Part shown: positions 2,414 through 58,067 of the stretch, one piece after another
Position numbering within the stretch: the first letter of the stretch is position 1
Layout of the letters: each line of letters starts with the position of its first letter
Source: Escherichia phage vB_EcoM_ESCO50
DNA: 64,000 bases
Sequence record: OM386664.1
Reading direction: 5' to 3' (one strand)
Notes under the pieces: generated by a model
Database searches by the model: none
Seen by the model: only the letters and a program-made list of their open reading frames with translations
What the model was told of the DNA's origin: nothing
Translations under genes and position numbers: made by a program

Positions 2414-3546
2414 TAAGGAACCTCTAAAAATCCACTATTCAAATCGTCTACAACAGTATTCAATAGGTACGCACCGTTCTGTTGCTCCTGATTAGCATTC
2501 TGCTCTTTATCAATTTCCATCTTCTTAATCATGTACTTCAAAGGTGGTTCTTTAGGAGCTACAAAATCTCTTTGAATACCAAACATATCATATAGCGGGG
2601 CAGCATTATAGTAAACCCACTCATGAAGAAGCTTTGTATTTAAGCCAACTACAGCACGTCCTTCGGAGAAGATATAATACGACCATTTCTCTTCACTTTC
2701 AACTACTTCATCTAAGATTACTTTAATCTCTGGAAGAATTTGTTGAAAAGCTTTCTGCCACTCATCGTCTCTTAAAGTTTCTTTTAAAACTTCAATATCA
2801 ATTTTAGTGTGAAGGATTTCGTCAAGCATAATTTTCTGGACAGCTTGAGCAATACCCTGAAATTTATCTTGAGCATCAAGTGCAAAGGTACATGCAAAGG
2901 ATGCCATAAAAGATATACCTTCCAGTGCAGTCACTGCAAATAGACCTTTCAGAATCACTTTATGGAAGTGTAAAGGGTCTTTGTCCAGAAGTGAGTCGCG
3001 CACATAACTCAGACGATAGTTTATACCTTCATCCAGTAATTCTTCAAGAACACGATTCACAGTTTTTAATCGGTCTTGCACAGCAACATTCTGGTTAATT
3101 TCGTCTAAGATTGTTTCAGGGTTTTTAATACATTGTCTTACAATCTCTGAGTAAGTAAGAGCATGTAGGTTTTCAATCTCAGACTGCTTCATAATTGCAG
3201 TTGCATAGATGTCATCAGAGATAAATGGTGCAAAGGCAAATGCCAAGCTCTTAGCAACTTGAGTGTCTGCTTCCCATTGCCACTTAAGAATCTCAAGCAT
3301 TACACCTGACATTGATGCTGGGACACTCTCAAAATCAAGACGTGATTGTTCAAAAGGAAACTCATCTTCTGACCAGTCTTGTGCTTTTTGTTGTTTATAA
3401 AGTTCAAAGATTTTTGGGTAGTGCTTGTTAAGTGAGTCAAAAGTTTTTCTCTCACCACCTAAAAAGATTGGGTGCTGGTTAATCATAGTGTGATTTCTCC
3501 TTTCTTTATCATTTCTGAGGCTTGTTTTCTGTCTAAAACTTCCCAA
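2413..3546 (-). CDS. nrdB: Ribonucleotide reductase class I small (beta) subunit
   Basis: 377 aa, helical, acidic C-terminus, immediately downstream of nrdA. True start may be the internal Met (MINQHPIF...). Confidence 0.8.
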   Translation of the reverse strand: MGSFRQKTSLRNDKERRNHTMINQHPIFLGGERKTFDSLNKHYPKIFELYKQQKAQDWSEDEFPFEQSRLDFESVPASMSGVMLEILKWQWEADTQVAKSLAFAFAPFISDDIYATAIMKQSEIENLHALTYSEIVRQCIKNPETILDEINQNVAVQDRLKTVNRVLEELLDEGINYRLSYVRDSLLDKDPLHFHKVILKGLFAVTALEGISFMASFACTFALDAQDKFQGIAQAVQKIMLDEILHTKIDIEVLKETLRDDEWQKAFQQILPEIKVILDEVVESEEKWSYYIFSEGRAVVGLNTKLLHEWVYYNAAPLYDMFGIQRDFVAPKEPPLKYMIKKMEIDKEQNANQEQQNGAYLLNTVVDDLNSGFLEVP

Positions 3547-49330: not shown

Positions 49331-49406
49331 TGGAGAATCCGAAGGGACTTGAACCCTTATAAACCTGTTTTGCAGACAGGAACATATCCATTTCTGTCAC
49401 GGATTC
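49331..49406 (-). tRNA. tRNA-Cys (anticodon GCA), CCA encoded
   Basis: Manual fold: perfect 7-bp acceptor, T-loop ttcaagt, anticodon loop cu-GCA-aa. Confidence 0.7.
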
Positions 49407-49411
49407 AAAAT

Positions 49412-49504
49412 TGGAGGAAGATACCAGACTTGAACTGGTACACCGATTTCTCAGCTACTGGCAGTTTAGCAAACTGCTCCCTTACCTTTTAGGGTTAATC
49501 TTCC
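49412..49504 (-). tRNA. tRNA-Ser (anticodon GCU), long variable arm
   Basis: Manual fold: perfect acceptor (ggaagat/atcttcc), anticodon stem gcagt/actgc, loop uu-GCU-aa, ~20-nt variable arm. Confidence 0.7.
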
Positions 49505-49505
49505 A

Positions 49506-50240
49506 TTATCTCTGTAATGCGCTCTTCATTTCTGGTGTTGCAATAGTATCAATCACACCAGTTTTACAAGCATCATCAAACCAGTCTGGTAAGATACCTG
49601 CTAAGAACCCATTGATATTCGTTTTAAGGTACTCTGCAATAAGGGCAGCTTCTTCTTCAATCATCTGCACAACTTCATCTGCATAAGCTGTAATCTTTGA
49701 AATACCTTCATTAATCTTACTAACAGCCTGATTAGCTAAATCAGAAATAGTCTCAAGACCCTCATCAATAGCGTCTTGTAAGTCACTTAACACACCGTTA
49801 ACACTGTCTAGTGTGCTGTTAATCATGTCAATAGCTTGCTGACCATACTCTGTAGCAACACCCATAATACCACTAAATGGTGTACAACCAACTTGTTCTC
49901 CTGCTGCACCCATAACATTGGAATACCCCTTTGCTACCTGCATACGTGATGAAAACTCATCAATAGACTTTTGACCATAGTCTGTTAGGGTCTTAGTAGT
50001 TGCTGTAGTGCTTGTAAGGCTTGTTGTAAAGCTGTTTAGAAGGACTGTTGTAAGTCCAGCAGCAACAAGCTTCTCCTGCATTGTAGGGTCTGTTACAGAG
50101 CTAATAGAGCTTACAAGTGATGTAGAGGCAGCTACGGTTCCACCGAGAACTGCTGCACCAGTAATAAGTGGGTTAGAAAACCCTCTACCGGTTTTTAAGA
50201 GATTAAAAATCTCCTTACCTTGTTCTGTCATCTCTTTCAT
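49506..50240 (-). CDS. Hypothetical Ser/Thr/Ala-rich protein embedded in the tRNA array (start trimmed to MKEMTEQ with AAAGG RBS)
   Basis: ORF track 49506..50288 would overlap the UAA tRNA; internal start at 50240 avoids this. Confidence 0.5.
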   Translation of the reverse strand: MKEMTEQGKEIFNLLKTGRGFSNPLITGAAVLGGTVAASTSLVSSISSVTDPTMQEKLVAAGLTTVLLNSFTTSLTSTTATTKTLTDYGQKSIDEFSSRMQVAKGYSNVMGAAGEQVGCTPFSGIMGVATEYGQQAIDMINSTLDSVNGVLSDLQDAIDEGLETISDLANQAVSKINEGISKITAYADEVVQMIEEEAALIAEYLKTNINGFLAGILPDWFDDACKTGVIDTIATPEMKSALQR

Positions 50241-50256
50241 TAAGCACCTTTGAAAT

Positions 50257-50335
50257 TGGTACTCCATATCGGATTCGAACCGATACATAACACAGATTTT
50301 AAGTCTGGCCTCTCTGCCAATTGGAGTAATGGAGC
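50257..50335 (-). tRNA. tRNA with anticodon UAA (leucine anticodon) but short variable region
   Basis: Manual fold: acceptor 7 bp (one G-U), T-arm atcgg-ttcgaat-ccgat, anticodon loop cu-UAA-aa, discriminator A73. Confidence 0.55.
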
Positions 50336-50337
50336 AT

Positions 50338-50413
50338 TGGCGGGGGATGTTGGAATTGAACCAACTTCTTCGATTTCAAAGACCGAGGTTTTAACCTTGT
50401 AAACTAATCCCCT
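50338..50413 (-). tRNA. tRNA-Gln (anticodon UUG)
   Basis: Manual fold: T-arm gttgg-ttcaatt-ccaac, anticodon loop cu-UUG-aa, U8 present; A1-C72 mismatch. Confidence 0.6.
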
Positions 50414-50421
50414 TTAAATCT

Positions 50422-50979
50422 TTACTTTCTCAGTGGATGAATAAAGAATGCCAACATAACTCTTCCCCTTGAGAATGCTCTTTCTTCTGGGACAACACTT
50501 TTTAGTTTCCATCCAATATAAATTCTCCAGTAAAACTGTTTACCAAAGATTTTAATTGATGGGATAAAAGCGAATAATCCCCAAGCATTGCTATTCCACA
50601 TTAGGAGATAACCAGTCTGATTATCTTCAGGGTCAGAACTTACGTTGATATTACCTTTCCACTTAGTAACATCTTTTACATCTCTTCCTAATACATGGTA
50701 AGAGAAGTTATAAGCTTTGTTTCTCCAGAGCCATCCAACTCTCTGCATGTAGACACCCAGCTTACCAATCTTTCTAATCTTAGCCCATCTTTTAACGTGG
50801 CCTTCATCACCATCAATCGGGTTGTCATAGGTCTCCATCCATCTGAATCCAAAAGGTAGATGCCCTTTCTTCTCACTGTAGAATGGAACCACGAAAGGTG
50901 CTAAGATGACTGCTAAGGTTGCTGCAAATGGTTCTAGTAAAGCTAGGAAAATCCATGAAGCATACTTCAAATATCTCAT
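50422..50979 (-). CDS. Membrane protein (185 aa) embedded in the tRNA array
   Basis: N-terminal hydrophobic segment IFLALLEPFAATLAVILAPFVVPF; Trp/Arg-rich remainder. Confidence 0.5.
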   Translation of the reverse strand: MRYLKYASWIFLALLEPFAATLAVILAPFVVPFYSEKKGHLPFGFRWMETYDNPIDGDEGHVKRWAKIRKIGKLGVYMQRVGWLWRNKAYNFSYHVLGRDVKDVTKWKGNINVSSDPEDNQTGYLLMWNSNAWGLFAFIPSIKIFGKQFYWRIYIGWKLKSVVPEERAFSRGRVMLAFFIHPLRK

Positions 50980-50998
50980 CTAAATAGCCTCTTAAAAT

Positions 50999-51076
50999 TG
51001 GTGTTCCAAGACGGATTCGAACCGTCACTAATACAAGGTTTGAGCTTGCATCCTCTGCCAATTGGGATACTGGAAC
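50999..51076 (-). tRNA. tRNA with anticodon CAA (leucine anticodon), short variable region
   Basis: Manual fold: T-arm gacgg-ttcgaat-ccgtc, anticodon loop cu-CAA-ac, D-loop similar to the UAA tRNA, A73. Confidence 0.55.
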
Positions 51077-51077
51077 A

Positions 51078-51152
51078 TGGTACTCACTAAAGGACTTGAA
51101 CCTTTTTCTTCATCTTGTAAGGGTGATGTTTTACCATATAAACTAAGCGAGT
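51078..51152 (-). tRNA. tRNA-Val (anticodon UAC)
   Basis: Manual fold: acceptor 7 bp (one G-U), anticodon loop cu-UAC-aa, U8. Confidence 0.65.
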
Positions 51153-51247
51153 GTGAAAGAGGTCTGAAGTTGTGCCGCTAACTCAACTCCGTGGAATTTG
51201 TTACGGTCTTCAGTTGACACCAGCGGTCTTTCACTTGACCTCTGAAT

Positions 51248-51324
51248 TGGTGCTGCTCACAGGACTCGAACCTGCATTTCCATCCTTACAAGGGATGTGT
51301 AATAGCCAATTATACGAAAGCAGC
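51248..51324 (-). tRNA. tRNA-Thr (anticodon UGU)
   Basis: Manual fold: perfect anticodon stem catcc/ggatg, loop cu-UGU-aa. Confidence 0.65.
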
Positions 51325-51331
51325 ATTAATT

Positions 51332-51406
51332 TGGAGCATCCAGAGGGAATCGAACCCTCAACCTCAGTTTGGAAGACTGTAATTTTCCCGTTTAAACTAT
51401 GGATGC
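51332..51406 (-). tRNA. tRNA-Gly (anticodon UCC)
   Basis: Manual fold: perfect acceptor, T-arm gaggg-ttcgatt-ccctc, loop cu-UCC-aa. Confidence 0.65.
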
Positions 51407-51412
51407 ACTAAT

Positions 51413-51488
51413 TGGTGGAGAAGCAGGGAATTGAACCCTGTACTTAAGTTTGCAAAACTTATGTTTTAACCATGTAAACTACATCCCC
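51413..51488 (-). tRNA. tRNA-Ala (anticodon UGC)
   Basis: Manual fold: perfect anticodon stem, loop uu-UGC-aa, and a G3-U70 wobble pair (the classic alanine identity element). Confidence 0.7.
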
Positions 51489-51494
51489 AATGTT

Positions 51495-51571
51495 TGGTAC
51501 ACCTAGAGAGATTCGAACTCACACTAAGCAGATTCTAAGTCTGCTGCCTCTACCAGTTGGGCTATAGGTGC
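51495..51571 (-). tRNA. tRNA with anticodon UAG (leucine anticodon), canonical 77-nt short-variable-arm geometry
   Basis: Manual fold: perfect 5-bp anticodon stem gcaga/tctgc, loop cu-UAG-aa, 5-nt variable loop, A73. Confidence 0.6.
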
Positions 51572-51828
51572 ATTAAATCTTTTTAGAGAACTTCTAAGAA
51601 CCTAAGCAACAAGGTTCCACAACAAGCTGTAATAACCTTAGAAGCCCTCTAAAAAGACCTAAAAAGGTCTTTGCATAGTCTTGTTTAATCCGGTGACTAG
51701 AACCTTTGGAGAGCTTGATATTATCTCTTCTCCGTGACACCTACTAGGTGCTCTATGAGTGTGTACGACAATACACGCGGGATACCAAAGCAACACCCTA
51801 ATGAAGCTTGGCTTTAAATCTTATTAGG

Positions 51829-51916
51829 CGGTAAGTAAAGGAGTCGAACCCTCACCGTATCTCTACAGTGGCAACTGTTTTCAAGACAGTTTGGCTACCA
51901 TTAGCCGCTACCTACC
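51829..51916 (-). tRNA. tRNA-Ser (anticodon UGA), long variable arm, CCA not encoded
   Basis: Manual fold: anticodon stem aactg/cagtt, loop cu-UGA-aa, ~18-nt variable region; T-stem has two G-U pairs. Confidence 0.5.
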
Positions 51917-51929
51917 CCTAATAAGACTT

Positions 51930-52012
51930 TGGCATGGGACGGAGGAGTTGAACCCCTTTGAAACGGTGTTGGAAGCCGTTGCTCATGCCTTAGAGTCTTA
52001 ACATCGTCCCAT
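51930..52012 (-). tRNA. tRNA-like gene, tentative Trp (anticodon CCA); D-region unusually long
   Basis: Perfect 7-bp acceptor and good T-arm; hairpin with loop uu-CCA-ac; but ~26 nt between anticodon arm and acceptor. Confidence 0.4.
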
Positions 52013-52155
52013 ACTATAATTCGAAGCTTACCGTATTATCTCAACACTGTAAAGCCCCTTCTCAGATTATTTACATGTTCTGGAAAACATGAGATACAGA
52101 CCACCTCCCTACAGGAAGACCCGCTTAGGTCGTCTAAGTAATCTGCTAACTAAAT

Positions 52156-52237
52156 TGGTCGAGGCGGCAGGACTCGAACCCGCATACTCCACTTACTCGG
52201 TTAACGTCTGTTTAGAAGACAGATGAGATACGCCCCG
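52156..52237 (-). tRNA. tRNA-like gene, tentative Arg (anticodon UCU); non-canonical arm spacing
   Basis: Acceptor (one G-U) and T-arm are clear; perfect hairpin tctgt-cttctaa-acaga; spacing leaves no room for a normal D-arm. Confidence 0.35.
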
Positions 52238-52485
52238 TAATTATCTTTAAAGACTCTCTTAGAAAGCCCTTAAAGATGCCCACCTTATTAATCATACCGT
52301 GGGCTAGTACGCCAAATTCTTTGATGAGGGATTGGAAGACCTCACTGGTGTTTAGCCTATCAAGCTACTGCCAGAAAAACATTGTCGTTTGCATTTATTT
52401 TAAATTTGCAAAATAGACGCTACGCAACGAAAACTAAGGGTACTATAAAGTGGTCACATCATTATTCTGCTACACTTCCATTAAA

Positions 52486-52625
52486 TTATCTTTGTAGATA
52501 AGCTACCCAGACTTGCTTAAGGTCTGTAGCGATGTGACTTTTTGGGTTTAAATCTAGAATTTACCCTTTCACCCTTTGTGGTCGCATACTCACAGGTAAG
52601 CTTAATAACTTATCTACAAAGATAA
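52486..52625. ncRNA. Candidate structured ncRNA: perfect 17-bp terminal inverted repeat enclosing ~106 nt with internal hairpins
   Basis: 52486-52502 ttatctttgtagataag is the exact reverse complement of 52609-52625; interior has hairpin cagac/gtctg and others; no T-loop. Confidence 0.3.
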
Positions 52626-52673
52626 TTACCAGACCGTTGTTTATCATCTTAACTAGATATCTCATAAAGTGTT

Positions 52674-52761
52674 TGGTGTGCCGTGTAGGAGTCGAACCTA
52701 CCGAGTCTCAATGACAAGGGATTTACAGTCCCCACCGCTACCATCTACGGGATAACGACAC
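52674..52761 (-). tRNA. tRNA-Tyr (anticodon GUA), long variable arm
   Basis: Manual fold: perfect T-arm gtagg-ttcgact-cctac, anticodon loop cu-GUA-aa, 16-nt variable region, acceptor with one G-U, U8. Confidence 0.6.
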
Positions 52762-52830
52762 ATTTAATTTCTATTCAGGCTAAGGACTTGCACCTTACAA
52801 ATCGGTGAGCAATCGCTTCTCTCCTGAATT

Positions 52831-52907
52831 TGGCGGTTAGTCAGGGATTCGAACCCTGTGCCATTCGCTTAACAGGCGACCGCACATACCTTATGTGCTT
52901 CCTAACC
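52831..52907 (-). tRNA. tRNA-Asn (anticodon GUU)
   Basis: Manual fold: perfect T-arm caggg-ttcgaat-ccctg, loop cu-GUU-aa. Confidence 0.6.
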
Positions 52908-52992
52908 ATGTTTAGTATTACCAGACCGTATCTTTCAATTTTTTCTGCTAAAAATTTAATAAATATTGCTGTAAACGGTCTTCTGTAAAATT

Positions 52993-53069
52993 TGGAGGCG
53001 GGTGCAGGAGTCGAACCTGCCGATACCATGCTAATGAGACATGTGAGACGCCCTTTCTCTATACCCGCA
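52993..53069 (-). tRNA. tRNA with anticodon CAU (Met, or Ile if C34 is modified)
   Basis: Manual fold: perfect T-arm gcagg-ttcgact-cctgc, loop cu-CAU-ua; acceptor register ambiguous at the 1-72 pair. Confidence 0.5.
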
Positions 53070-53199
53070 ATTCTTAATGACCAGACCAAATCTCTTCTTT
53101 GTCCGATTTACCTTCAGGTGAATAAGATTAAGTTTGCTGTAATTGGTCTTCTGTCAAAACTGGCGTTCCAGAAGGGATTTGTCTACTGGAACATTAATT

Positions 53200-53276
53200 T
53201 GGTCTCTGTTGGAGGACTTGAACCTCCGGCCTTACCGCCCCAAACGGAACGCTCTACCAAGCTGAGCTAAACAGAG
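53200..53276 (-). tRNA. tRNA-Pro (anticodon UGG)
   Basis: Manual fold: perfect acceptor (ctctgtt/aacagag), perfect T-arm, loop uu-UGG-gg with G37. Confidence 0.65.
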
Positions 53277-53400
53277 ATAAACTTTTTAAACTCTATGTAA
53301 CCACTTTAACACTATTTTTTAGTGATTGTCAAGAACTTTTTTAAAATATTTTCAGTATCTTAGAAAAGCTCTCGTTTCGTTTCTATGTAGAACATATTAA

Positions 53401-53432
53401 AGGGTATTAAACACATTGTCAATACCCTTTTT
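53401..53432 (-). terminator. Hairpin (agggtatt...aataccct) with T-tract just downstream of the vWA gene stop
   Basis: 8-bp inverted repeat read directly. Confidence 0.5.
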
Positions 53433-53440
53433 AAAACTTT

Positions 53441-54856
53441 TTACCAGATATAACGGTCAAGCATTACTGCTTTGAGCATTACGCTGATTGGGTCAAACTT
53501 CTCACCACCAAGTAGAGCTTTTAAAGTGGCTGGAGAGAAACCAGATACCATTGCTACACCGTTATCCTTAACAGATACTTCGCAAGTACCATTACGGTTT
53601 GCTAAGTACCAGAATACCAGTTGTGGCATCCCATATCCAGCTTTTTTGTACTTACTCTGAATTGCTTCAAAGTTTGTACGACCGTTAGCTCCATCAACCT
53701 GATTGAACTCCATATCTGAGAAGATGATAAGCTTACTTGGCATATCTTTCTGAGTCAAGTTATTTCTTTTACCTGTCTCAAGAATGCGGTCAAAAGCTGC
53801 TTGTAAGTTAGTGGAGCCATATTCAACGTGTCGCATCACCTGACGATGACGGTTTCGTAAATCACCACTCAGTTCGATGAAGTGAGGGTTTGTTGAATAA
53901 ACCATTAACTCATTCTTAAAGCAACCTGTATTGCGTTCTGCTACATACAATGCAAGTGATACACCAATATCAAGAGCAGTAATTGAACCAAAATTCACCC
54001 AAGACATTGAGCATGAAACATCAGACATACATAGGATGTTTTCACCTTCTGCCATCCAGTTTGGTAGTGCTTTCCACTGCTCATTAGCAACATCTGCATT
54101 ACCATACTTAACAGATTTAATCACATCGTATGGGTAAACAGCACCAGCATTAATCTTAGCCTTACCATTTGATAAGGACTCGATGTAAGCTTTGTAGCGT
54201 TCTCCATCTTTACGGTTAAACAGCTTTTGGTAACGTGCAGCAGCAAGTGAAGGAACCTTACTGTAGTCAATCTTACCAAACTCATTAGCAGAGATTTTTT
54301 GCTCAACTGTATCAGATAGTGCAGACAACAGTGTGCGGTACTCTTTCTCACTCAAGTTGGCAAACTTGCAGAAACGTTTTACAAACTGCTTATGACGTGG
54401 TTTGACTCGTGGTAACCACTTGGCTGCCAAACCTGCTGTTGCAGGGTCTAGTAATGCTGCTTCTAAATGCTTGAAGGCATCTGTCTCAAAACGAGTACCT
54501 ACGAAGATTTTGAAGTCATCAAAACGACCAAGTTCTGCAACCTTATCCATAATGCGAAGAACCTGTGTAGGCTCTAAAACTTTATCTTCAATCGCTTGAA
54601 GCAAAACAGTTCTGAAGGCTTTACGCTCACCCATACCTTCTCGTACATCTCGCATATGAAGCAAAATACGAACTGCAACATCAACATCCTCACGCAAAGC
54701 TTTGTAGAACAGGTCTGGTAAGATTTCTACATTGCTACGGCTTGAACCAGCAGCTTTGTAAAAGTCTACAAGAGCAGACATTGATGAAGTATGGTTTACA
54801 GCACCATTTTCAGTTCTACCTGCATGAAGGTGCGCATGTTTAAATAACTCGCTCAT
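53441..54856 (-). CDS. von Willebrand factor A (vWA/MIDAS) domain protein with ~260-aa helical N-terminal module; possible Ro60/TROVE-like protein
   Basis: MIDAS signature DVSCSMS (DxSxS) after a hydrophobic beta strand (ENILCMSDVSCSMS), later SKLIIFSDMEF; 471 aa. vWA assignment moderately confident; Ro60-like idea is inference. Confidence 0.6.
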   Translation of the reverse strand: MSELFKHAHLHAGRTENGAVNHTSSMSALVDFYKAAGSSRSNVEILPDLFYKALREDVDVAVRILLHMRDVREGMGERKAFRTVLLQAIEDKVLEPTQVLRIMDKVAELGRFDDFKIFVGTRFETDAFKHLEAALLDPATAGLAAKWLPRVKPRHKQFVKRFCKFANLSEKEYRTLLSALSDTVEQKISANEFGKIDYSKVPSLAAARYQKLFNRKDGERYKAYIESLSNGKAKINAGAVYPYDVIKSVKYGNADVANEQWKALPNWMAEGENILCMSDVSCSMSWVNFGSITALDIGVSLALYVAERNTGCFKNELMVYSTNPHFIELSGDLRNRHRQVMRHVEYGSTNLQAAFDRILETGKRNNLTQKDMPSKLIIFSDMEFNQVDGANGRTNFEAIQSKYKKAGYGMPQLVFWYLANRNGTCEVSVKDNGVAMVSGFSPATLKALLGGEKFDPISVMLKAVMLDRYIW

Positions 54857-54937
54857 ATTTTACTCTCTTCTCTCATTTGTTGTTTGATGTGACAGACTTT
54901 AGAGTAACTTTGTAGAGTCTGTCAACATCTTTTAAAA

Positions 54938-55309
54938 TTATTTTTTGAGAGTTGCAACAGCAGAGAACGTTGGTTTGTTATCTGTCTGAGACTGACCACC
55001 GTTATCAGGAGCCTTCTTAGTGTCTGCTGCGATTGCTTTCATCTCACCTGCTGAGTGGGTCATGATAGTTTTACCAGCTTCCATCATCGACTTCAGGTTT
55101 ACATCGTCAGTCGTCAAACCGAACTCTGCAAGCTTAGCAGCATCCCTTGTAACAATCGCTTCAAACAACTTTGCAGCAAACTCAGCAGAATTATCAATGG
55201 TCAGTTGAGCTTTTACGAGAGAGCTTTTGTTACGGGAGCCTTTTGGTCTTCCAGATGGGTTTCCAGACTGGCCTTTTTTAAACTGGCCTTTGTTTGTTCT
55301 GTTTTTCAT
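54938..55309 (-). CDS. Hypothetical protein with N-terminal KGQSGNPSGRPKG motif (possible DNA-binding / small-terminase-like)
   Basis: Motif recalled from phage DNA-binding or small-terminase-annotated proteins; low-complexity tail. Confidence 0.45.
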   Translation of the reverse strand: MKNRTNKGQFKKGQSGNPSGRPKGSRNKSSLVKAQLTIDNSAEFAAKLFEAIVTRDAAKLAEFGLTTDDVNLKSMMEAGKTIMTHSAGEMKAIAADTKKAPDNGGQSQTDNKPTFSAVATLKK

Positions 55310-55484
55310 TGGTATGCCTCTTATAAGACCTCTTAAAAGGCTTTTAAGATAAAAGATAGATATCCAGAAAGATATCTGTTTAAATAGCCTTTTTAGAGGA
55401 ACCTTTTAAGTTATCTTCTAAGTATTTATAAGCCTATACCTTGTCAAGTGCTTTGTCAACAACTTTTTTAACTTGCAATAGTTC

Positions 55485-56566: not shown

Positions 56567-56941
56567 ATGCAAGCTAAGAGTGCAAAAGACTTTTATTGCT
56601 TCCTACAAACCTATATCAATTCCGTGCAAAATGGTGAAAGGTACAACCTTAATGATGTTATCCCAACACCTTTGACATGGAGGCTCGATAAATGGCCTGA
56701 AGAAGATATTACACCAACAAGCGAACAGTGTACCTACAATCCTGAAATCAACCTTCCAGACTCTGAGAATCTATTATATCCAATGTTCCATATTGTTGGT
56801 CTTGGAAGATTTCTTATGGATATCCAGTATGTAATTGGTAAAGATTATAAGGTTAAAGGTATTGTTGTTGGTGATGTATCTCCGCATCACAAAGGTTATT
56901 TTAGACTAAACGCACATTTAGAGGCTAAAAGAAATGATTAA
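56567..56941 (+). CDS. Hypothetical protein (124 aa), paralog of the N-terminal domain of the next gene
   Basis: MQAKSAKDFYCFLQTYINSVQNGERYNLNDVIPTPL... aligns with MIKAKTYPDFKEFVNGFVANVKAGKRYDFRTYQEAILPL... and both share ...FxMDxQYxI... Confidence 0.5.
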   Translation: MQAKSAKDFYCFLQTYINSVQNGERYNLNDVIPTPLTWRLDKWPEEDITPTSEQCTYNPEINLPDSENLLYPMFHIVGLGRFLMDIQYVIGKDYKVKGIVVGDVSPHHKGYFRLNAHLEAKRND

Positions 56942-58067
56942 AGCAAAGACTTACCCAGACTTCAAAGAGTTTGTGAATGGCTTCGTTGCAAATGTAAAGG
57001 CTGGTAAGAGATATGATTTTAGAACATATCAGGAGGCTATTTTACCGCTTACCTATAGTTCATATTGGCCTGAAGCTGATATTGCAGAAGTTGAGGAATT
57101 TGACTACGAGCCAGACTACAAAGTTCCATTTAGTGATGAGTTGCTTTACAGCATCGGTGCTCAAATGAGGACTTCTGACTTCTTCATGGACTTACAATAT
57201 GCAATTATCAATGATAAAGATGTTGATACGGTTTATTGTGAATGGTTGGCAAGAGTTAAACCATTCTCAATGCTGAATGCTAAGTTGAAGGATGCTATCA
57301 AGCCACCAGTAATCACTCAGCAGCCAACCAATCAAACAGTAAATGAAGGTGCTACACTTACCCTAAGTGTTGTTGCAACGAATGCTACTGGATATCAATG
57401 GAAAAAGGATGGTGAGGATATCACTAGTGCCACATCTGCAACCTACACCAAAGAAAGTGCAACCACTGCTGATGCTGGTTCTTATACTTGTGTTGTGTCT
57501 GGAGAGGCTGGTACAAGTGTTACCTCAGATGCGGCAACAGTTACTGTCAACGCACTGCCTGTGATTACACAGCAACCTTCTAGCCAGACCATCAATGAGG
57601 GTGGAAACATCAGCTTGGAAGTGACTGCAACAGGTGCAACAGGCTATCAGTGGAAGAAAGATGGTTCTGACATTCCTTCGGCTACAGAGGCTACCTATAG
57701 CAAGTCTGGTGCGCTTCCAGCAGATGCAGGTTCATATACTTGCGTTGTAACAGGTGCAGGTGGTTCTGTGGAATCTGATGCTGCAACAGTTACTGTGAAC
57801 GCACTTCCAGTAATCACTCAACAGCCAACCAATCAAGAAATCACTGAAGGTGATACCTTAACGCTGAATGTTGTGGCAACTGGTGCAACAGGCTACCAGT
57901 GGAAGAAAGGTGAGGAAGACATCCTCGATGCAACTGCTGCAACTTACACCAAAGAAGGTGCAACCGCTGCTGATGCAGGAAGCTACACTTGTGTAGTTAC
58001 TGGTGCAGGTGGCTCTGTAACATCTAATGCAGCAACAGTTACAGTTAACCCAGCAGGGGAGGCATAA
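56934..58067 (+). CDS. Protein with N-terminal paralogous domain plus three tandem Ig-like domains
   Basis: Three ~83-aa repeats each containing PVITQQP...GYQWKK(D)G...AGSYTCVV...ATVTVN, an Ig-like (I-set-type) pattern. Confidence 0.65.
   Translation: MIKAKTYPDFKEFVNGFVANVKAGKRYDFRTYQEAILPLTYSSYWPEADIAEVEEFDYEPDYKVPFSDELLYSIGAQMRTSDFFMDLQYAIINDKDVDTVYCEWLARVKPFSMLNAKLKDAIKPPVITQQPTNQTVNEGATLTLSVVATNATGYQWKKDGEDITSATSATYTKESATTADAGSYTCVVSGEAGTSVTSDAATVTVNALPVITQQPSSQTINEGGNISLEVTATGATGYQWKKDGSDIPSATEATYSKSGALPADAGSYTCVVTGAGGSVESDAATVTVNALPVITQQPTNQEITEGDTLTLNVVATGATGYQWKKGEEDILDATAATYTKEGATAADAGSYTCVVTGAGGSVTSNAATVTVNPAGEA
57304..58053 (+). repeat. Three tandem ~250-bp near-identical coding repeats (Ig-like domain units)
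   Basis: Repeat starts near 57304, 57553 and 57805. Confidence 0.7.

What the first reader, a model, noticed from the sequence alone, without database searches (positions are those of the whole stretch)
52486..54856. Possible Ro60-like vWA protein next to a Y-RNA-like inverted-repeat element in the tRNA array
The 471-aa minus-strand protein 53441..54856 has a C-terminal vWA signature with MIDAS motif D-V-S-C-S-M-S after a ~260-aa predicted helical module. That domain order is the architecture of Ro60/Rsr (TROVE) proteins, which bind Y RNAs; bacterial Y RNAs are tRNA-like and encoded next to rsr. About 800 bp away, inside the tRNA array, 52486-52502 is the exact reverse complement of 52609-52625 (17 bp), closing a ~106-nt segment with internal hairpins and no T-loop. 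A long terminal stem enclosing an internal module is the Y-RNA layout. If real, this would be a phage-encoded RNP module linked to its tRNA set.
Basis: partly seen in the sequence, partly recalled or inferred. Interest (0 to 1): 0.7.

Follow-up and report, generated by a model that had tools for sequence, protein, structure and literature searches.

The report
Phage Ro60-like protein and Y-like RNAs
This FelixO1-like phage encodes a protein with the Ro60 fold just upstream of its tRNA genes; the flagged inverted repeat is a real, conserved RNA hairpin, but the more likely Y-RNA-like partners are a different, previously undescribed stem motif next to it.

Summary

The inverted repeat is real: 22 nt, 95% complementary, fold z-score -6.3. 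Five pairs show compensatory changes, and the pairing is specific to the tRNA-sense strand. It is not a YrlA-type Y RNA. It has no T or D arm and no bulged binding helix, and I found it only in FelixO1-like relatives. There it is the 5' leader hairpin of tRNA-Lys. I read it as a double-stranded processing or stability element (inferred).

The better Y-like candidates share a covarying helix followed by YUUR-CAGCAA. The window has two stem-only copies (53078-53156 and 52918-52988). In relatives a third copy encloses a permuted tRNA-like domain (T arm, closed acceptor stem, D arm), which is the YrlA layout. The window has lost that copy by deletion. The motif lies near the gene, on the same strand, in 42 of 65 unrelated DUF2828 phage loci. 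Binding of these RNAs by the protein is untested.

The parts
53441..54856 (-). Gene for a 471-aa Ro60-fold protein (Pfam DUF2828 N-terminal helical ring plus DUF7788 vWA/MIDAS). It is the ortholog of Bas63 gp130.
53394..53430 (-). Terminator-like hairpin just after the stop codon. It overlaps a sigma-70-like promoter site (53394-53422). A second promoter-like site lies at 53303-53332, upstream of tRNA-Pro.
   Evidence: Consensus scan only. The number of sites is no greater than in shuffles, so this is weak evidence.
53078..53156 (-). CAGCAA-stem module A (stem only) in the tRNA-Pro to tRNA-Met spacer. Layout: UGAC/GUCA helix, AGA x G internal loop, AGACCAA/UUGGUCU helix, then UUACAGCAA.
   Evidence: R1 covariance model 45.7 bits, E 3e-7. 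MFE reproduces both helices. Paralogous and orthologous copies covary.
52918..52988 (-). CAGCAA-stem module B (stem only) in the tRNA-Met to tRNA-Asn spacer. Layout: UUAC/GUAA helix, AGA x G loop, AGACCGU/ACGGUCU helix, then UUACAGCAA.
   Evidence: R1 54 bits, E 3e-9. MFE reproduces both helices. Other phages have UUGC/GCAA at the same place.
52626..52638 (-). Orphan 3' strand (AACGGUCUGGUAA) of module D, the YrlA-type tRNA-like RNA of relatives. Its 5' strand and T/AS/D domain are deleted in this phage.
   Evidence: Alignment with 8 relatives. Breakpoints against Bas63: L097 2748-3085 is missing. R1 gives only 16.6 bits at 52625-52755.
52484..52627 (-). The flagged element: a ~144-nt structured RNA closed by the inverted repeat (5' arm 52606-52627, 3' arm 52484-52505 in RNA sense).
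   Evidence: Alignment of 17 variants: 99.8% of cells paired against 27-45% when slid, and 5 pairs with compensatory changes. Sense strand scores 138 bits, antisense 33 bits.
52509..52525 (-). Mini hairpin inside the element, next to the 3' arm: AGAC / CUUAAGCAA loop / GUCU.
   Evidence: The stem covaries (AGACC/GGUCU, AAACC/GGUUU, AGUC/GACU, GUUC/GAAC) while the loop C(U)UUA(A)GCAA is kept.
51573..51662 (-). Second long leader hairpin (26-nt arms), immediately 5' of tRNA-Leu(UAG). Its 3' arm is a paralogue of the flagged element's 3' arm (…CUAAAAAGAUUUAAU).
   Evidence: z-score -5.76. Conserved in relatives.
49331..53276 (-). tRNA array (15 ARAGORN tRNAs plus one Rfam-only hit), same strand as the gene. 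It is shortened by five deletions relative to Bas63.

Best explanation
The gene encodes a divergent Ro60-type protein: a helical TROVE-like ring plus a vWA/MIDAS domain. It is the ortholog of Bas63 gp130, which counters the Ppl defence system. It heads a same-strand tRNA operon. The RNAs most likely to be its Y-RNA-like ligands are the 'CAGCAA-stem' modules. Each has a 7-bp covarying helix, often with a second short helix across a small asymmetric loop. The single-stranded sequence YUUR-CAGCAA follows the helix, and a variable apical part follows that. The window keeps two stem-only copies between tRNAs; tRNA processing would release them as ~85-130-nt RNAs whose ends pair. The third copy, which in relatives carries a permuted tRNA-like domain (T arm, closed 7-bp acceptor stem, D arm, i.e. 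the YrlA layout), has been lost here by a 338-nt deletion. The flagged inverted repeat is a separate, lineage-specific structured RNA. In relatives it is the 5' leader hairpin of tRNA-Lys(UUU). Its 24-bp duplex most likely acts as a double-strand processing or stability element of the polycistronic tRNA precursor, of the RNase III substrate type, like the long stems that enclose tRNA-Ser and precede tRNA-Leu in the same array. Shown here: the protein fold, the RNA structures and their conservation, and the gene-RNA linkage. Inferred: RNA binding by the protein, and cleavage or stabilisation at the hairpin.
For: Protein; function of the ortholog. CAGCAA stems in the FelixO1-like subfamily (Ounavirinae): four paralogues with covarying helices (UGAC/GUCA, UUAC/GUAA, UUGC/GCAA, GAGC/GCUC; CCAA/UUGG versus CCGU/ACGG). 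Module D: the MFE alone gives the V, T, 7-bp AS and D arms, and the AS helix has three fully compensated sequence types. Model R1 was trained only on Ounavirinae sequences. It finds same-strand hits next to DUF2828 genes whose proteins are only 39-47% identical: L079 59.8 bits, L027 56 bits plus three more copies, and L086, L051, L038, L034. 60 of 63 hits are on the gene's strand. On 26 hits, 27 of 27 pairs show double-sided changes and 96% of cells are paired, against 37-45% when slid. Rfam YrlA gives sub-threshold hits on exactly three of these RNAs: 38.2, 41.4 and 35.8 bits. A model-free descriptor finds same-strand gene-proximal hits in 42 of 65 loci (69 hits), against 9 gene-proximal hits on the opposite strand and 3-13 loci with same-strand gene-proximal hits for permuted hexamers. 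Hairpin. It is absent from the other DUF2828 loci. It is kept upstream of tRNA-Lys in L098 (57.9 bits), and in L100 a tRNA-Ala separates it from module D. Other long stems lie in the same array.
Against: No experiment links any of these RNAs to the protein. Bas63 gp130 alone, from a plasmid or inserted in T7, counters Ppl, so that activity needs no phage RNA. The window phage and its close relatives live without the tRNA-like RNA. The stem-only modules fold only modestly better than shuffles (z -1.0 and -1.9). Their 5' halves contain TTGACA/TTTACA, so a promoter role in FelixO1-like phages is not excluded. Alignment A4 was fitted to the model, which inflates pair counts. The mini hairpin in the flagged element (AGACC…AGCAA…GGUCUG) resembles the CAGCAA stem, so the element could also be a ligand. 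RNase III cleavage is not testable here.
Confidence: 0.5

Rival explanations
1. One reading: the flagged hairpin is itself a Y-RNA-like ligand of the Ro60-like protein, with a terminal stem plus an internal effector module.
For: It is on the same strand, 814 nt from the gene. It has a long terminal stem formed by its ends, and its structure is conserved and compensated. It is retained between two deletions that removed its neighbours. Its conserved inner mini hairpin AGAC(C)-CUUAAGCAA-(G)GUCU-G shares the words AGACC, AGCAA and GGUCUG with the CAGCAA stems.
Against: It has no T or D arm, no bulged helix or CGAA/CAGCAA site in the terminal stem, no Rfam YrlA hit and no R1 hit. Model R2 finds no counterpart in 65 other DUF2828 loci. 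In L100 it goes with tRNA-Lys, not with the Y-like RNA. Similar long stems elsewhere in the array enclose or precede ordinary tRNAs.
Confidence: 0.2
2. The CAGCAA stems are not protein ligands. They are cis-acting signals of the operon: promoters, processing sites, or 3'-end or stability elements of the DUF2828 mRNA.
For: In FelixO1-like phages the 5' half reads TTGACA or TTTACA, and one copy scored as promoter-like. In many other phages the stem starts 24-66 nt after the stop codon, where a 3'-end element would sit.
Against: Module C and most copies in other phages lack any -35-like hexamer. A promoter does not explain the complementary, covarying 3' strand 50-130 nt downstream. It also does not explain the embedded tRNA-like domain, which Rfam scores as YrlA-like. 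Some loci carry 3-5 tandem copies upstream of the gene (L027, L086).
Confidence: 0.2
3. The inverted repeat acts at the DNA level, as a cruciform, a recombination or homing-endonuclease target, or the ends of a small mobile insertion.
For: The array is a hotspot of insertions and deletions, and HNH endonuclease genes are inserted nearby in relatives. Two interior sequence types sit between the same ends.
Against: Several stem positions are G-U in the tRNA-sense strand only. These would be C-A mismatches on the other strand or in a cruciform. The sense strand scores 133-179 bits against 24-36 for the antisense. No relative shows an empty site.
Confidence: 0.05
4. The region encodes a small protein on the opposite strand, as annotated in Bas63 (bas63_0137 and bas63_0138).
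For: Bas63 annotates 36-50-aa antisense CDSs over module D and the hairpin. The window has 27- and 39-aa plus-strand ORFs here.
Against: The two interior types differ by indels that are not multiples of three and share no reading frame. Conservation follows base pairing, not codons. The ORFs start with TTG and are not kept between relatives.
Confidence: 0.03

Closest known systems
Bas63 (Escherichia phage JohannRWettstein) gp130, PhageMaP preprint 10.1101/2024.10.10.617714
   Same: Ortholog: 96% identity over 471 aa, with the same position between the DUF5681 gene and the tRNA array. It is reported there as structurally similar to Ro60 and as a counter of the Ppl defence, and the authors speculate that some 'tRNA genes' are Y RNAs.
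   Different: The preprint names no RNA. Here specific candidates are defined (CAGCAA stems A, B and D). In Bas63, module D and the hairpin are annotated as antisense CDSs 0137 and 0138. The window phage lacks the tRNA-like RNA that Bas63 has.
Ro60/Rsr with YrlA/YrlB Y RNAs (Chen et al. 2014, PMC4201824; Rfam RF02553)
   Same: Ring plus vWA protein fold. The RNAs are encoded next to the gene on the same strand. Module D and its relatives share the closing stem and the V, T, AS, D order of a permuted tRNA-like domain. Stem-only copies parallel the smaller YrlB.
   Different: The protein is not detected by TROVE-type sequence searches. The conserved single-stranded word is CAGCAA rather than GNCGAAN0-1G. 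Rfam YrlA reaches only 36-41 bits (gathering score 69) on three copies and misses the FelixO1-like copy. The RNAs are embedded in a tRNA array.
Thermus phage phiLo Ro60 with Yrl1/Yrl2 (PMC12135203; PDB 9KOP, 9L5Y)
   Different: phiLo Ro60 is annotated as a TROVE protein and its Yrls carry a CGAA motif in a large internal bulge. Sequence identity to the window protein is about 15%.
Double-stranded processing stems of polycistronic stable-RNA precursors (RNase III sites flanking rRNAs; RNase III in T4 tRNA-cluster processing; from my own knowledge, not checked here)
   Same: An uninterrupted duplex of 22-24 bp formed by sequences flanking an internal module inside a stable-RNA operon. The same array has stems enclosing tRNA-Ser and preceding tRNA-Leu.
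   Different: No cleavage data exist. The enclosed module is not a tRNA or rRNA, and it has its own conserved mini hairpin.

Membership tests
Ro60 / TROVE protein family | N-terminal alpha-helical (HEAT-repeat) ring of the TROVE type | tested here: met
Ro60 / TROVE protein family | C-terminal vWA domain with a MIDAS motif (DxSxS…T…D) | tested here: met
   D279-V-S281-C-S283, T349 and D381 are invariant in 34 homologs. Pfam DUF7788 E 1e-42. vWA structural matches.
Ro60 / TROVE protein family | Recognised by sequence profiles of the family (Pfam TROVE, or Ro60 sequences in the PDB) | tested here: not met
   The Pfam scan at E <= 0.1 returns only DUF2828 and DUF7788. phmmer and a 34-sequence profile against PDB sequences find no Ro60. 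The relationship is visible only at the fold level.
Ro60 / TROVE protein family | Binds Y RNA or misfolded RNA | not testable with these tools
   Only indirect evidence: a conserved RNA motif co-located with the gene in 42 of 65 unrelated loci.
YrlA-type Y RNA (Rfam RF02553), applied to the flagged hairpin 52484-52627 | Encoded within about 4 kb of the Ro60 gene on the same strand | tested here: met
   814 nt downstream of the stop codon, on the minus strand like the gene.
YrlA-type Y RNA (Rfam RF02553), applied to the flagged hairpin 52484-52627 | tRNA-like domain with T arm, closed acceptor-like stem and D arm | tested here: not met
   No tRNA or YrlA hit at E <= 1. No R1 hit on the element. 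No GUUCRANNC or D-loop GG motif in the sequence.
YrlA-type Y RNA (Rfam RF02553), applied to the flagged hairpin 52484-52627 | Stem formed by the 5' and 3' ends that carries the Ro-binding site (bulged helix, GGUCCGA / GNCGAAN0-1G) | tested here: not met
   A terminal stem exists, but it is a 24-bp uninterrupted duplex with no bulge and no such motif.
YrlA-type Y RNA, applied to module D of relatives (absent from the window) | Closing stem plus V, T, AS, D order of a permuted tRNA-like domain | tested here: met
   (Bas63 L097 2968-3116). Related copies in L027, L038 and L034 get Rfam YrlA scores of 38.2, 41.4 and 35.8 bits, below the gathering score of 69. The FelixO1-like copy itself gets no Rfam hit.
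CAGCAA-stem RNAs next to DUF2828 genes (family defined here) | 7-bp covarying helix, then 2-4 nt and CAGCAA, with the complementary strand 12-200 nt downstream, on the gene's strand near the gene | tested here: met
   Window modules A and B: R1 45.7 and 54 bits, both recovered by the descriptor. The flagged hairpin as a whole does not match; its inner mini hairpin (AGAC-CUUAAGCAA-GUCU) is only a partial resemblance.
RNase III-type processing stem | About 20 bp or more of uninterrupted double-stranded RNA in a precursor transcript | tested here: met
   24 consecutive pairs in the MFE and the centroid. Kept by compensatory changes.
RNase III-type processing stem | Cleavage by RNase III in vivo or in vitro | not testable with these tools
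   No transcript data were found in the paper library.

The most novel reading that the evidence does not exclude
DUF2828/DUF7788 proteins and CAGCAA-stem RNAs form a widespread, previously unrecognised phage branch of the Ro60-Y RNA ribonucleoprotein. It is often wired into phage tRNA arrays. Its tRNA-like and stem-only RNAs, and possibly the tRNA-Lys leader hairpin flagged here, tune or target the protein's activity in counter-defence or in tRNA/RNA quality control during infection.
Probability: 0.4. Interest if true: 0.75.

Novelty: new variant of a known kind. Interest (0 to 1): 0.6.

Why it matters
Ro60-Y RNA particles are known in animals, about 5% of bacteria and a few phages, always found through TROVE-annotated proteins. 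This protein family escapes TROVE-type sequence detection, is common in phages (2350 significant hits among the candidates scored), and has one experimentally shown role, countering the Ppl defence (Bas63 gp130). Concrete RNA partner candidates with a clear conserved motif make two things directly testable. One is the preprint's open suggestion that some 'tRNA genes' are Y RNAs. The other is how a Ro60-type protein defeats a defence system. The analysis also flags probable mis-annotated antisense ORFs in FelixO1-like genomes, and it shows that natural variants such as this window have lost the tRNA-like RNA while keeping the protein.

Tried and rejected
Sequence-level links to Ro60 gave nothing: phmmer and a 34-sequence profile against PDB sequences, and NCBIfam.

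Rfam on the window (E <= 1) and on phage Mushroom (E <= 10) gave no Y RNA or YrlA hit. Rfam at gathering threshold on 13 tRNA-free DUF2828 loci gave nothing.

Searching with the hairpin model R2 in 65 other DUF2828 loci gave no credible hit, so I dropped the idea that the hairpin is the family-wide partner.

I considered a promoter reading of the repeated ACAGAAGACC…TACAGCAA sequence. I set it aside because module C and the copies in other phages have no -35-like hexamer, and because the distal complementary strand covaries.

I rejected the small-ORF reading and the DNA-cruciform reading on frame and G-U grounds.

The descriptor scan on the whole window gives 18 hits, mostly in coding sequence, because CAGCAA is a frequent word. 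The descriptor alone is therefore not specific. The evidence lies in the strand and position contrast and in the covariance model.

Three review papers on Ro60 were not in the library, so details of the animal Ro-binding bulged helix rest and on my own knowledge.

The alignment that R2 produced mixed sense and antisense hits, so I did not use it for pair counts.
Full report
**What the window is.** Region 51500-55400 is 95-99% identical to many FelixO1-like phages (Felixounavirus, subfamily Ounavirinae). The best match is Escherichia phage vB_EcoM_ESCO45, at 98.6% over 100% of the query. On the minus strand the order is: a DUF5681 gene (54938-55309), the 471-aa gene (53441-54856), then a tRNA array from 53276 down to 49331.

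**Checking the observation.** Both parts are correct. The ORF contains DVSCSMS at residues 279-285. Positions 52486-52502 are the exact reverse complement of 52609-52625. The repeat extends to 22-nt arms at 95% complementarity. As RNA in the tRNA sense it forms 24 uninterrupted pairs, with z-score -6.25 and 0 of 200 shuffles folding as well. Only eight close inverted repeats of 16 nt or more exist in the 64 kb, and this is the most perfect.

**The protein.**
- Pfam places it in DUF2828 (N-terminal) plus DUF7788 (C-terminal), not TROVE. PHROGs calls the family 'RNA-binding protein'.
- Sequence and profile searches against PDB sequences do not reach Ro60.
- An AlphaFold2 model built on 34 diverse homologs is confident (pLDDT 87.3, pTM 0.88).
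- The ten best Foldseek matches in the PDB are all full-length Ro60 proteins, E 3e-9 to 5e-7, including the Thermus phage phiLo Ro60.
- The MIDAS residues D279, S281, S283, T349 and D381 are invariant in the family alignment.

So the fold and domain order are those of Ro60, although sequence-profile membership in TROVE is not met.

**The flagged hairpin.**
- It is 95-98% conserved in most Felixounaviruses.
- It occurs in two interior sequence types that share the ends, a GAUUCUAGAUU block and a mini hairpin.
- Over 17 distinct variants, 99.8% of pair cells are standard pairs, against 27-45% when partners are slid. Five pairs carry compensatory changes that arose in at least two different lineage splits.
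- Several pairs are G-U in the tRNA sense only, and the covariance model scores the sense strand at 133-179 bits against 24-36 for the antisense. It is therefore an RNA structure of the tRNA-sense transcript.
- It has no T or D arm and no bulge or CGAA-type word in its terminal stem. Neither Rfam YrlA nor model R1 hits it.
- Its own model (R2) finds nothing credible in 65 DUF2828 loci from other phage groups.
- In more distant FelixO1-like relatives it is still present directly upstream of tRNA-Lys(UUU). In L098 (protein 63% identical) it scores 57.9 bits with z -5.3. In L100 (56% identical) the hit is weak, and a tRNA-Ala separates it from the Y-like RNA.
- Its inner mini hairpin keeps the loop C(U)UUA(A)GCAA while its stem covaries: AGAC/GUCU, AGACC/GGUCU, AAACC/GGUUU, AGUC/GACU, GUUC/GAAC.
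- The array contains other long stems of the same style. A 26-nt-arm hairpin lies just 5' of tRNA-Leu (51573-51662, z -5.76), and its 3' arm is a paralogue of the flagged element's 3' arm. Stems also enclose tRNA-Ser, both here and in Yersinia phage P778.

I therefore read the element as a structured leader or processing hairpin of the tRNA precursor. RNase III cleavage or protection from exonucleases is inference only.

**What turned up next to it.** I aligned the tRNA-Asp to tRNA-Lys gap of other FelixO1-like phages. Immediately 5' of the hairpin they carry a T arm (GAAGG-UUCGAUU-CCUUC), a closed 7-bp acceptor-like stem, then U-G and a canonical D arm (GUGU-AAUGGUA-GCAC). All of this is enclosed by a stem, ACAGAAGACCGUU…AACGGUCUGGUAA. 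This T, AS, D order inside a closing stem is the YrlA layout described by Chen et al. 2014. Thermodynamic folding of the Bas63 copy alone reproduces every arm. The acceptor-like stem exists in three fully compensated sequence versions.

The same closing stem recurs as four paralogues in the array. Each has a 4-bp outer helix, an AGA x G internal loop, the helix AGACC+NN / NN+GGUCU, and then (U)UACAGCAA. Both helices covary between copies. The window keeps two stem-only copies, module A (53078-53156) and module B (52918-52988), and only the orphan 3' strand of the tRNA-like copy (52626-52638). Comparison with Bas63 shows five deletions in the window's array. One of them removes tRNA-Asp, module C and module D up to its D arm.

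**Link to the protein family.**
- A covariance model built only from FelixO1-like copies (R1) finds strong hits beside DUF2828 genes in unrelated viral contigs whose proteins are 39-47% identical. Examples are L079 at 59.8 bits, 140 nt after the stop codon, and L027 at 56 bits plus several tandem copies upstream, with further hits in L086, L051, L038, L034 and L029.
- 60 of 63 hits outside the window are on the gene's strand, and most weak hits start within a few hundred nt of the stop codon.
- These hits keep YUUR-CAGCAA after the helix while the helix sequence changes freely.
- On 26 aligned hits, 27 of 27 pairs show double-sided changes and 96.3% of cells are paired, against 37-45% when slid. 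The alignment was fitted to the model, which favours the structure, but the margin is large.
- Rfam's YrlA model independently gives its only hits, all sub-threshold (38.2, 41.4 and 35.8 bits against a gathering score of 69), on three of these same RNAs.
- A model-free descriptor (perfect 7-bp helix, 2-4 nt, CAGCAA, complementary strand 12-200 nt on) gives 69 same-strand gene-proximal hits in 42 of 65 loci, against 9 gene-proximal hits on the opposite strand. With permuted hexamers, 3-13 loci have a same-strand gene-proximal hit.
- The descriptor is not specific on its own: it gives 18 hits across the window, mostly in coding sequence. The evidence is the strand and position contrast plus the covariance model.
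- I found no paper in the library that describes these RNAs.

**How it most likely works.**
- Shown: a Ro60-fold protein gene is followed by a same-strand tRNA operon that carries conserved structured RNAs. One RNA class, the CAGCAA stems, with or without a tRNA-like domain, accompanies this protein family across many phages.
- Inferred: tRNA processing frees the inter-tRNA modules as small RNAs whose ends pair. The protein binds the helix and the adjacent CAGCAA, as Ro60 binds the bulged stem of Y RNAs. The apical part, tRNA-like or not, would recruit or gate other factors.
- The flagged hairpin is a separate element of the precursor, probably for processing or stability. Its AGCAA-loop mini hairpin leaves open that it is also bound.
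- Two cautions apply. gp130 alone suffices against Ppl. This phage has lost the tRNA-like RNA. The RNAs are therefore dispensable for at least one function and in at least some hosts.

**Verdict.** The protein interpretation is correct but already published for the ortholog. The RNA interpretation points at the wrong element but to the right kind of system. I rate the find as a new variant of a known kind (a Ro60-Y RNA module), with interest 0.6.

Noticed in passing
L097 (Bas63 MZ501086.1) 2949-3101 and 3113-3223; corresponds to window ~52480-52650 and the deleted segment: Bas63 annotates two antisense 'hypothetical protein' CDSs (bas63_0137, bas63_0138) exactly over the YrlA-like RNA (R1 170 bits at L097 2973-3113) and the flagged hairpin. 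They are probably spurious ORFs over structured RNAs.
   Followed up: partly
window 49331-53276: Compared with Bas63, the window's tRNA array has five deletions: inside tRNA-Glu; tRNA-Asp plus modules C and D; tRNA-Lys/Met/Ile; one Leu/Lys unit; and Gln/His/Phe. That leaves 15-16 tRNAs instead of about 26. A tRNA-Glu remnant lies at ~53157-53199 and the first ~11-13 nt of tRNA-Lys lie just 3' of the hairpin, from ~52477 downward (GGAAGUGUAGC…).
   Followed up: partly
window 52159-52237 (-): Rfam tRNA hit at 33.4 bits (above the gathering score of 29) that ARAGORN does not call. Relatives have tRNA-Arg(UCU) at this position. Its 5' leader repeats the hairpin's 3'-arm sequence (UCUUUAAAGAUAAUUA, 52238-52253).
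   Followed up: no
window 51816-51828 / 51917-51929 around tRNA-Ser(UGA) 51827-51916; L099 10505-10621: A 13-nt stem (92% complementary) extends the acceptor stem of tRNA-Ser in the precursor. In Yersinia phage P778 the equivalent tRNA-Ser is enclosed by a stem of about 20 bp (z -3.6). This resembles the processing stems that flank rRNAs.
   Followed up: partly
window 51573-51662 (-): A second very stable hairpin (26-nt arms, z -5.76) lies immediately 5' of tRNA-Leu(UAG). It contains UUACAGC and is preceded by a small AAGACCU/AGGUCUU hairpin, so the words AGACC/GGUCU recur throughout the array.
   Followed up: partly
window ~51925-52015 (-): The sequence UGGGACG…GGGGUUCAACUCCUCCGUCCCA looks like a degenerate tRNA (acceptor and T arm recognisable, other arms aberrant). 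No tool calls it.
   Followed up: no
L023 7382-8130; L051 6895-7015 and 7025-7137; L060 9184-9302; L077 8787-8905; L053 8751-8868 and 9019-9136: ARAGORN calls a 'permuted tmRNA' over module D of a Mooglevirus, which is an artefact of the permuted tRNA-like order. Separately, Rfam tRNA hits of about 113-121 nt in several DUF2828 loci suggest tRNAs with insertions of about 45 nt, or tRNA-like chimeras.
   Followed up: no
window 50422-50979 (-) and 49506-50288 (-): Two protein genes (DUF7338, annotated as holin in phage Mushroom; and DUF7217) are embedded within the tRNA array on the same strand.
   Followed up: no
window 56934-58067 (+): A 377-aa protein with three tandem ~90-aa repeats (…ITQQP…GYQWKKDG…AGSYTCVV…). 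Its counterpart by position in Bas63, bas63_0124, is annotated as an immunoglobulin-like domain protein.
   Followed up: no
L026-L090: Every tRNA that ARAGORN finds within 5 kb of a DUF2828 gene in non-FelixO1-like phage contigs is on the gene's strand, and several arrays start about 500 nt after the gene. This suggests a recurrent link between this protein family and phage tRNA sets.
   Followed up: partly
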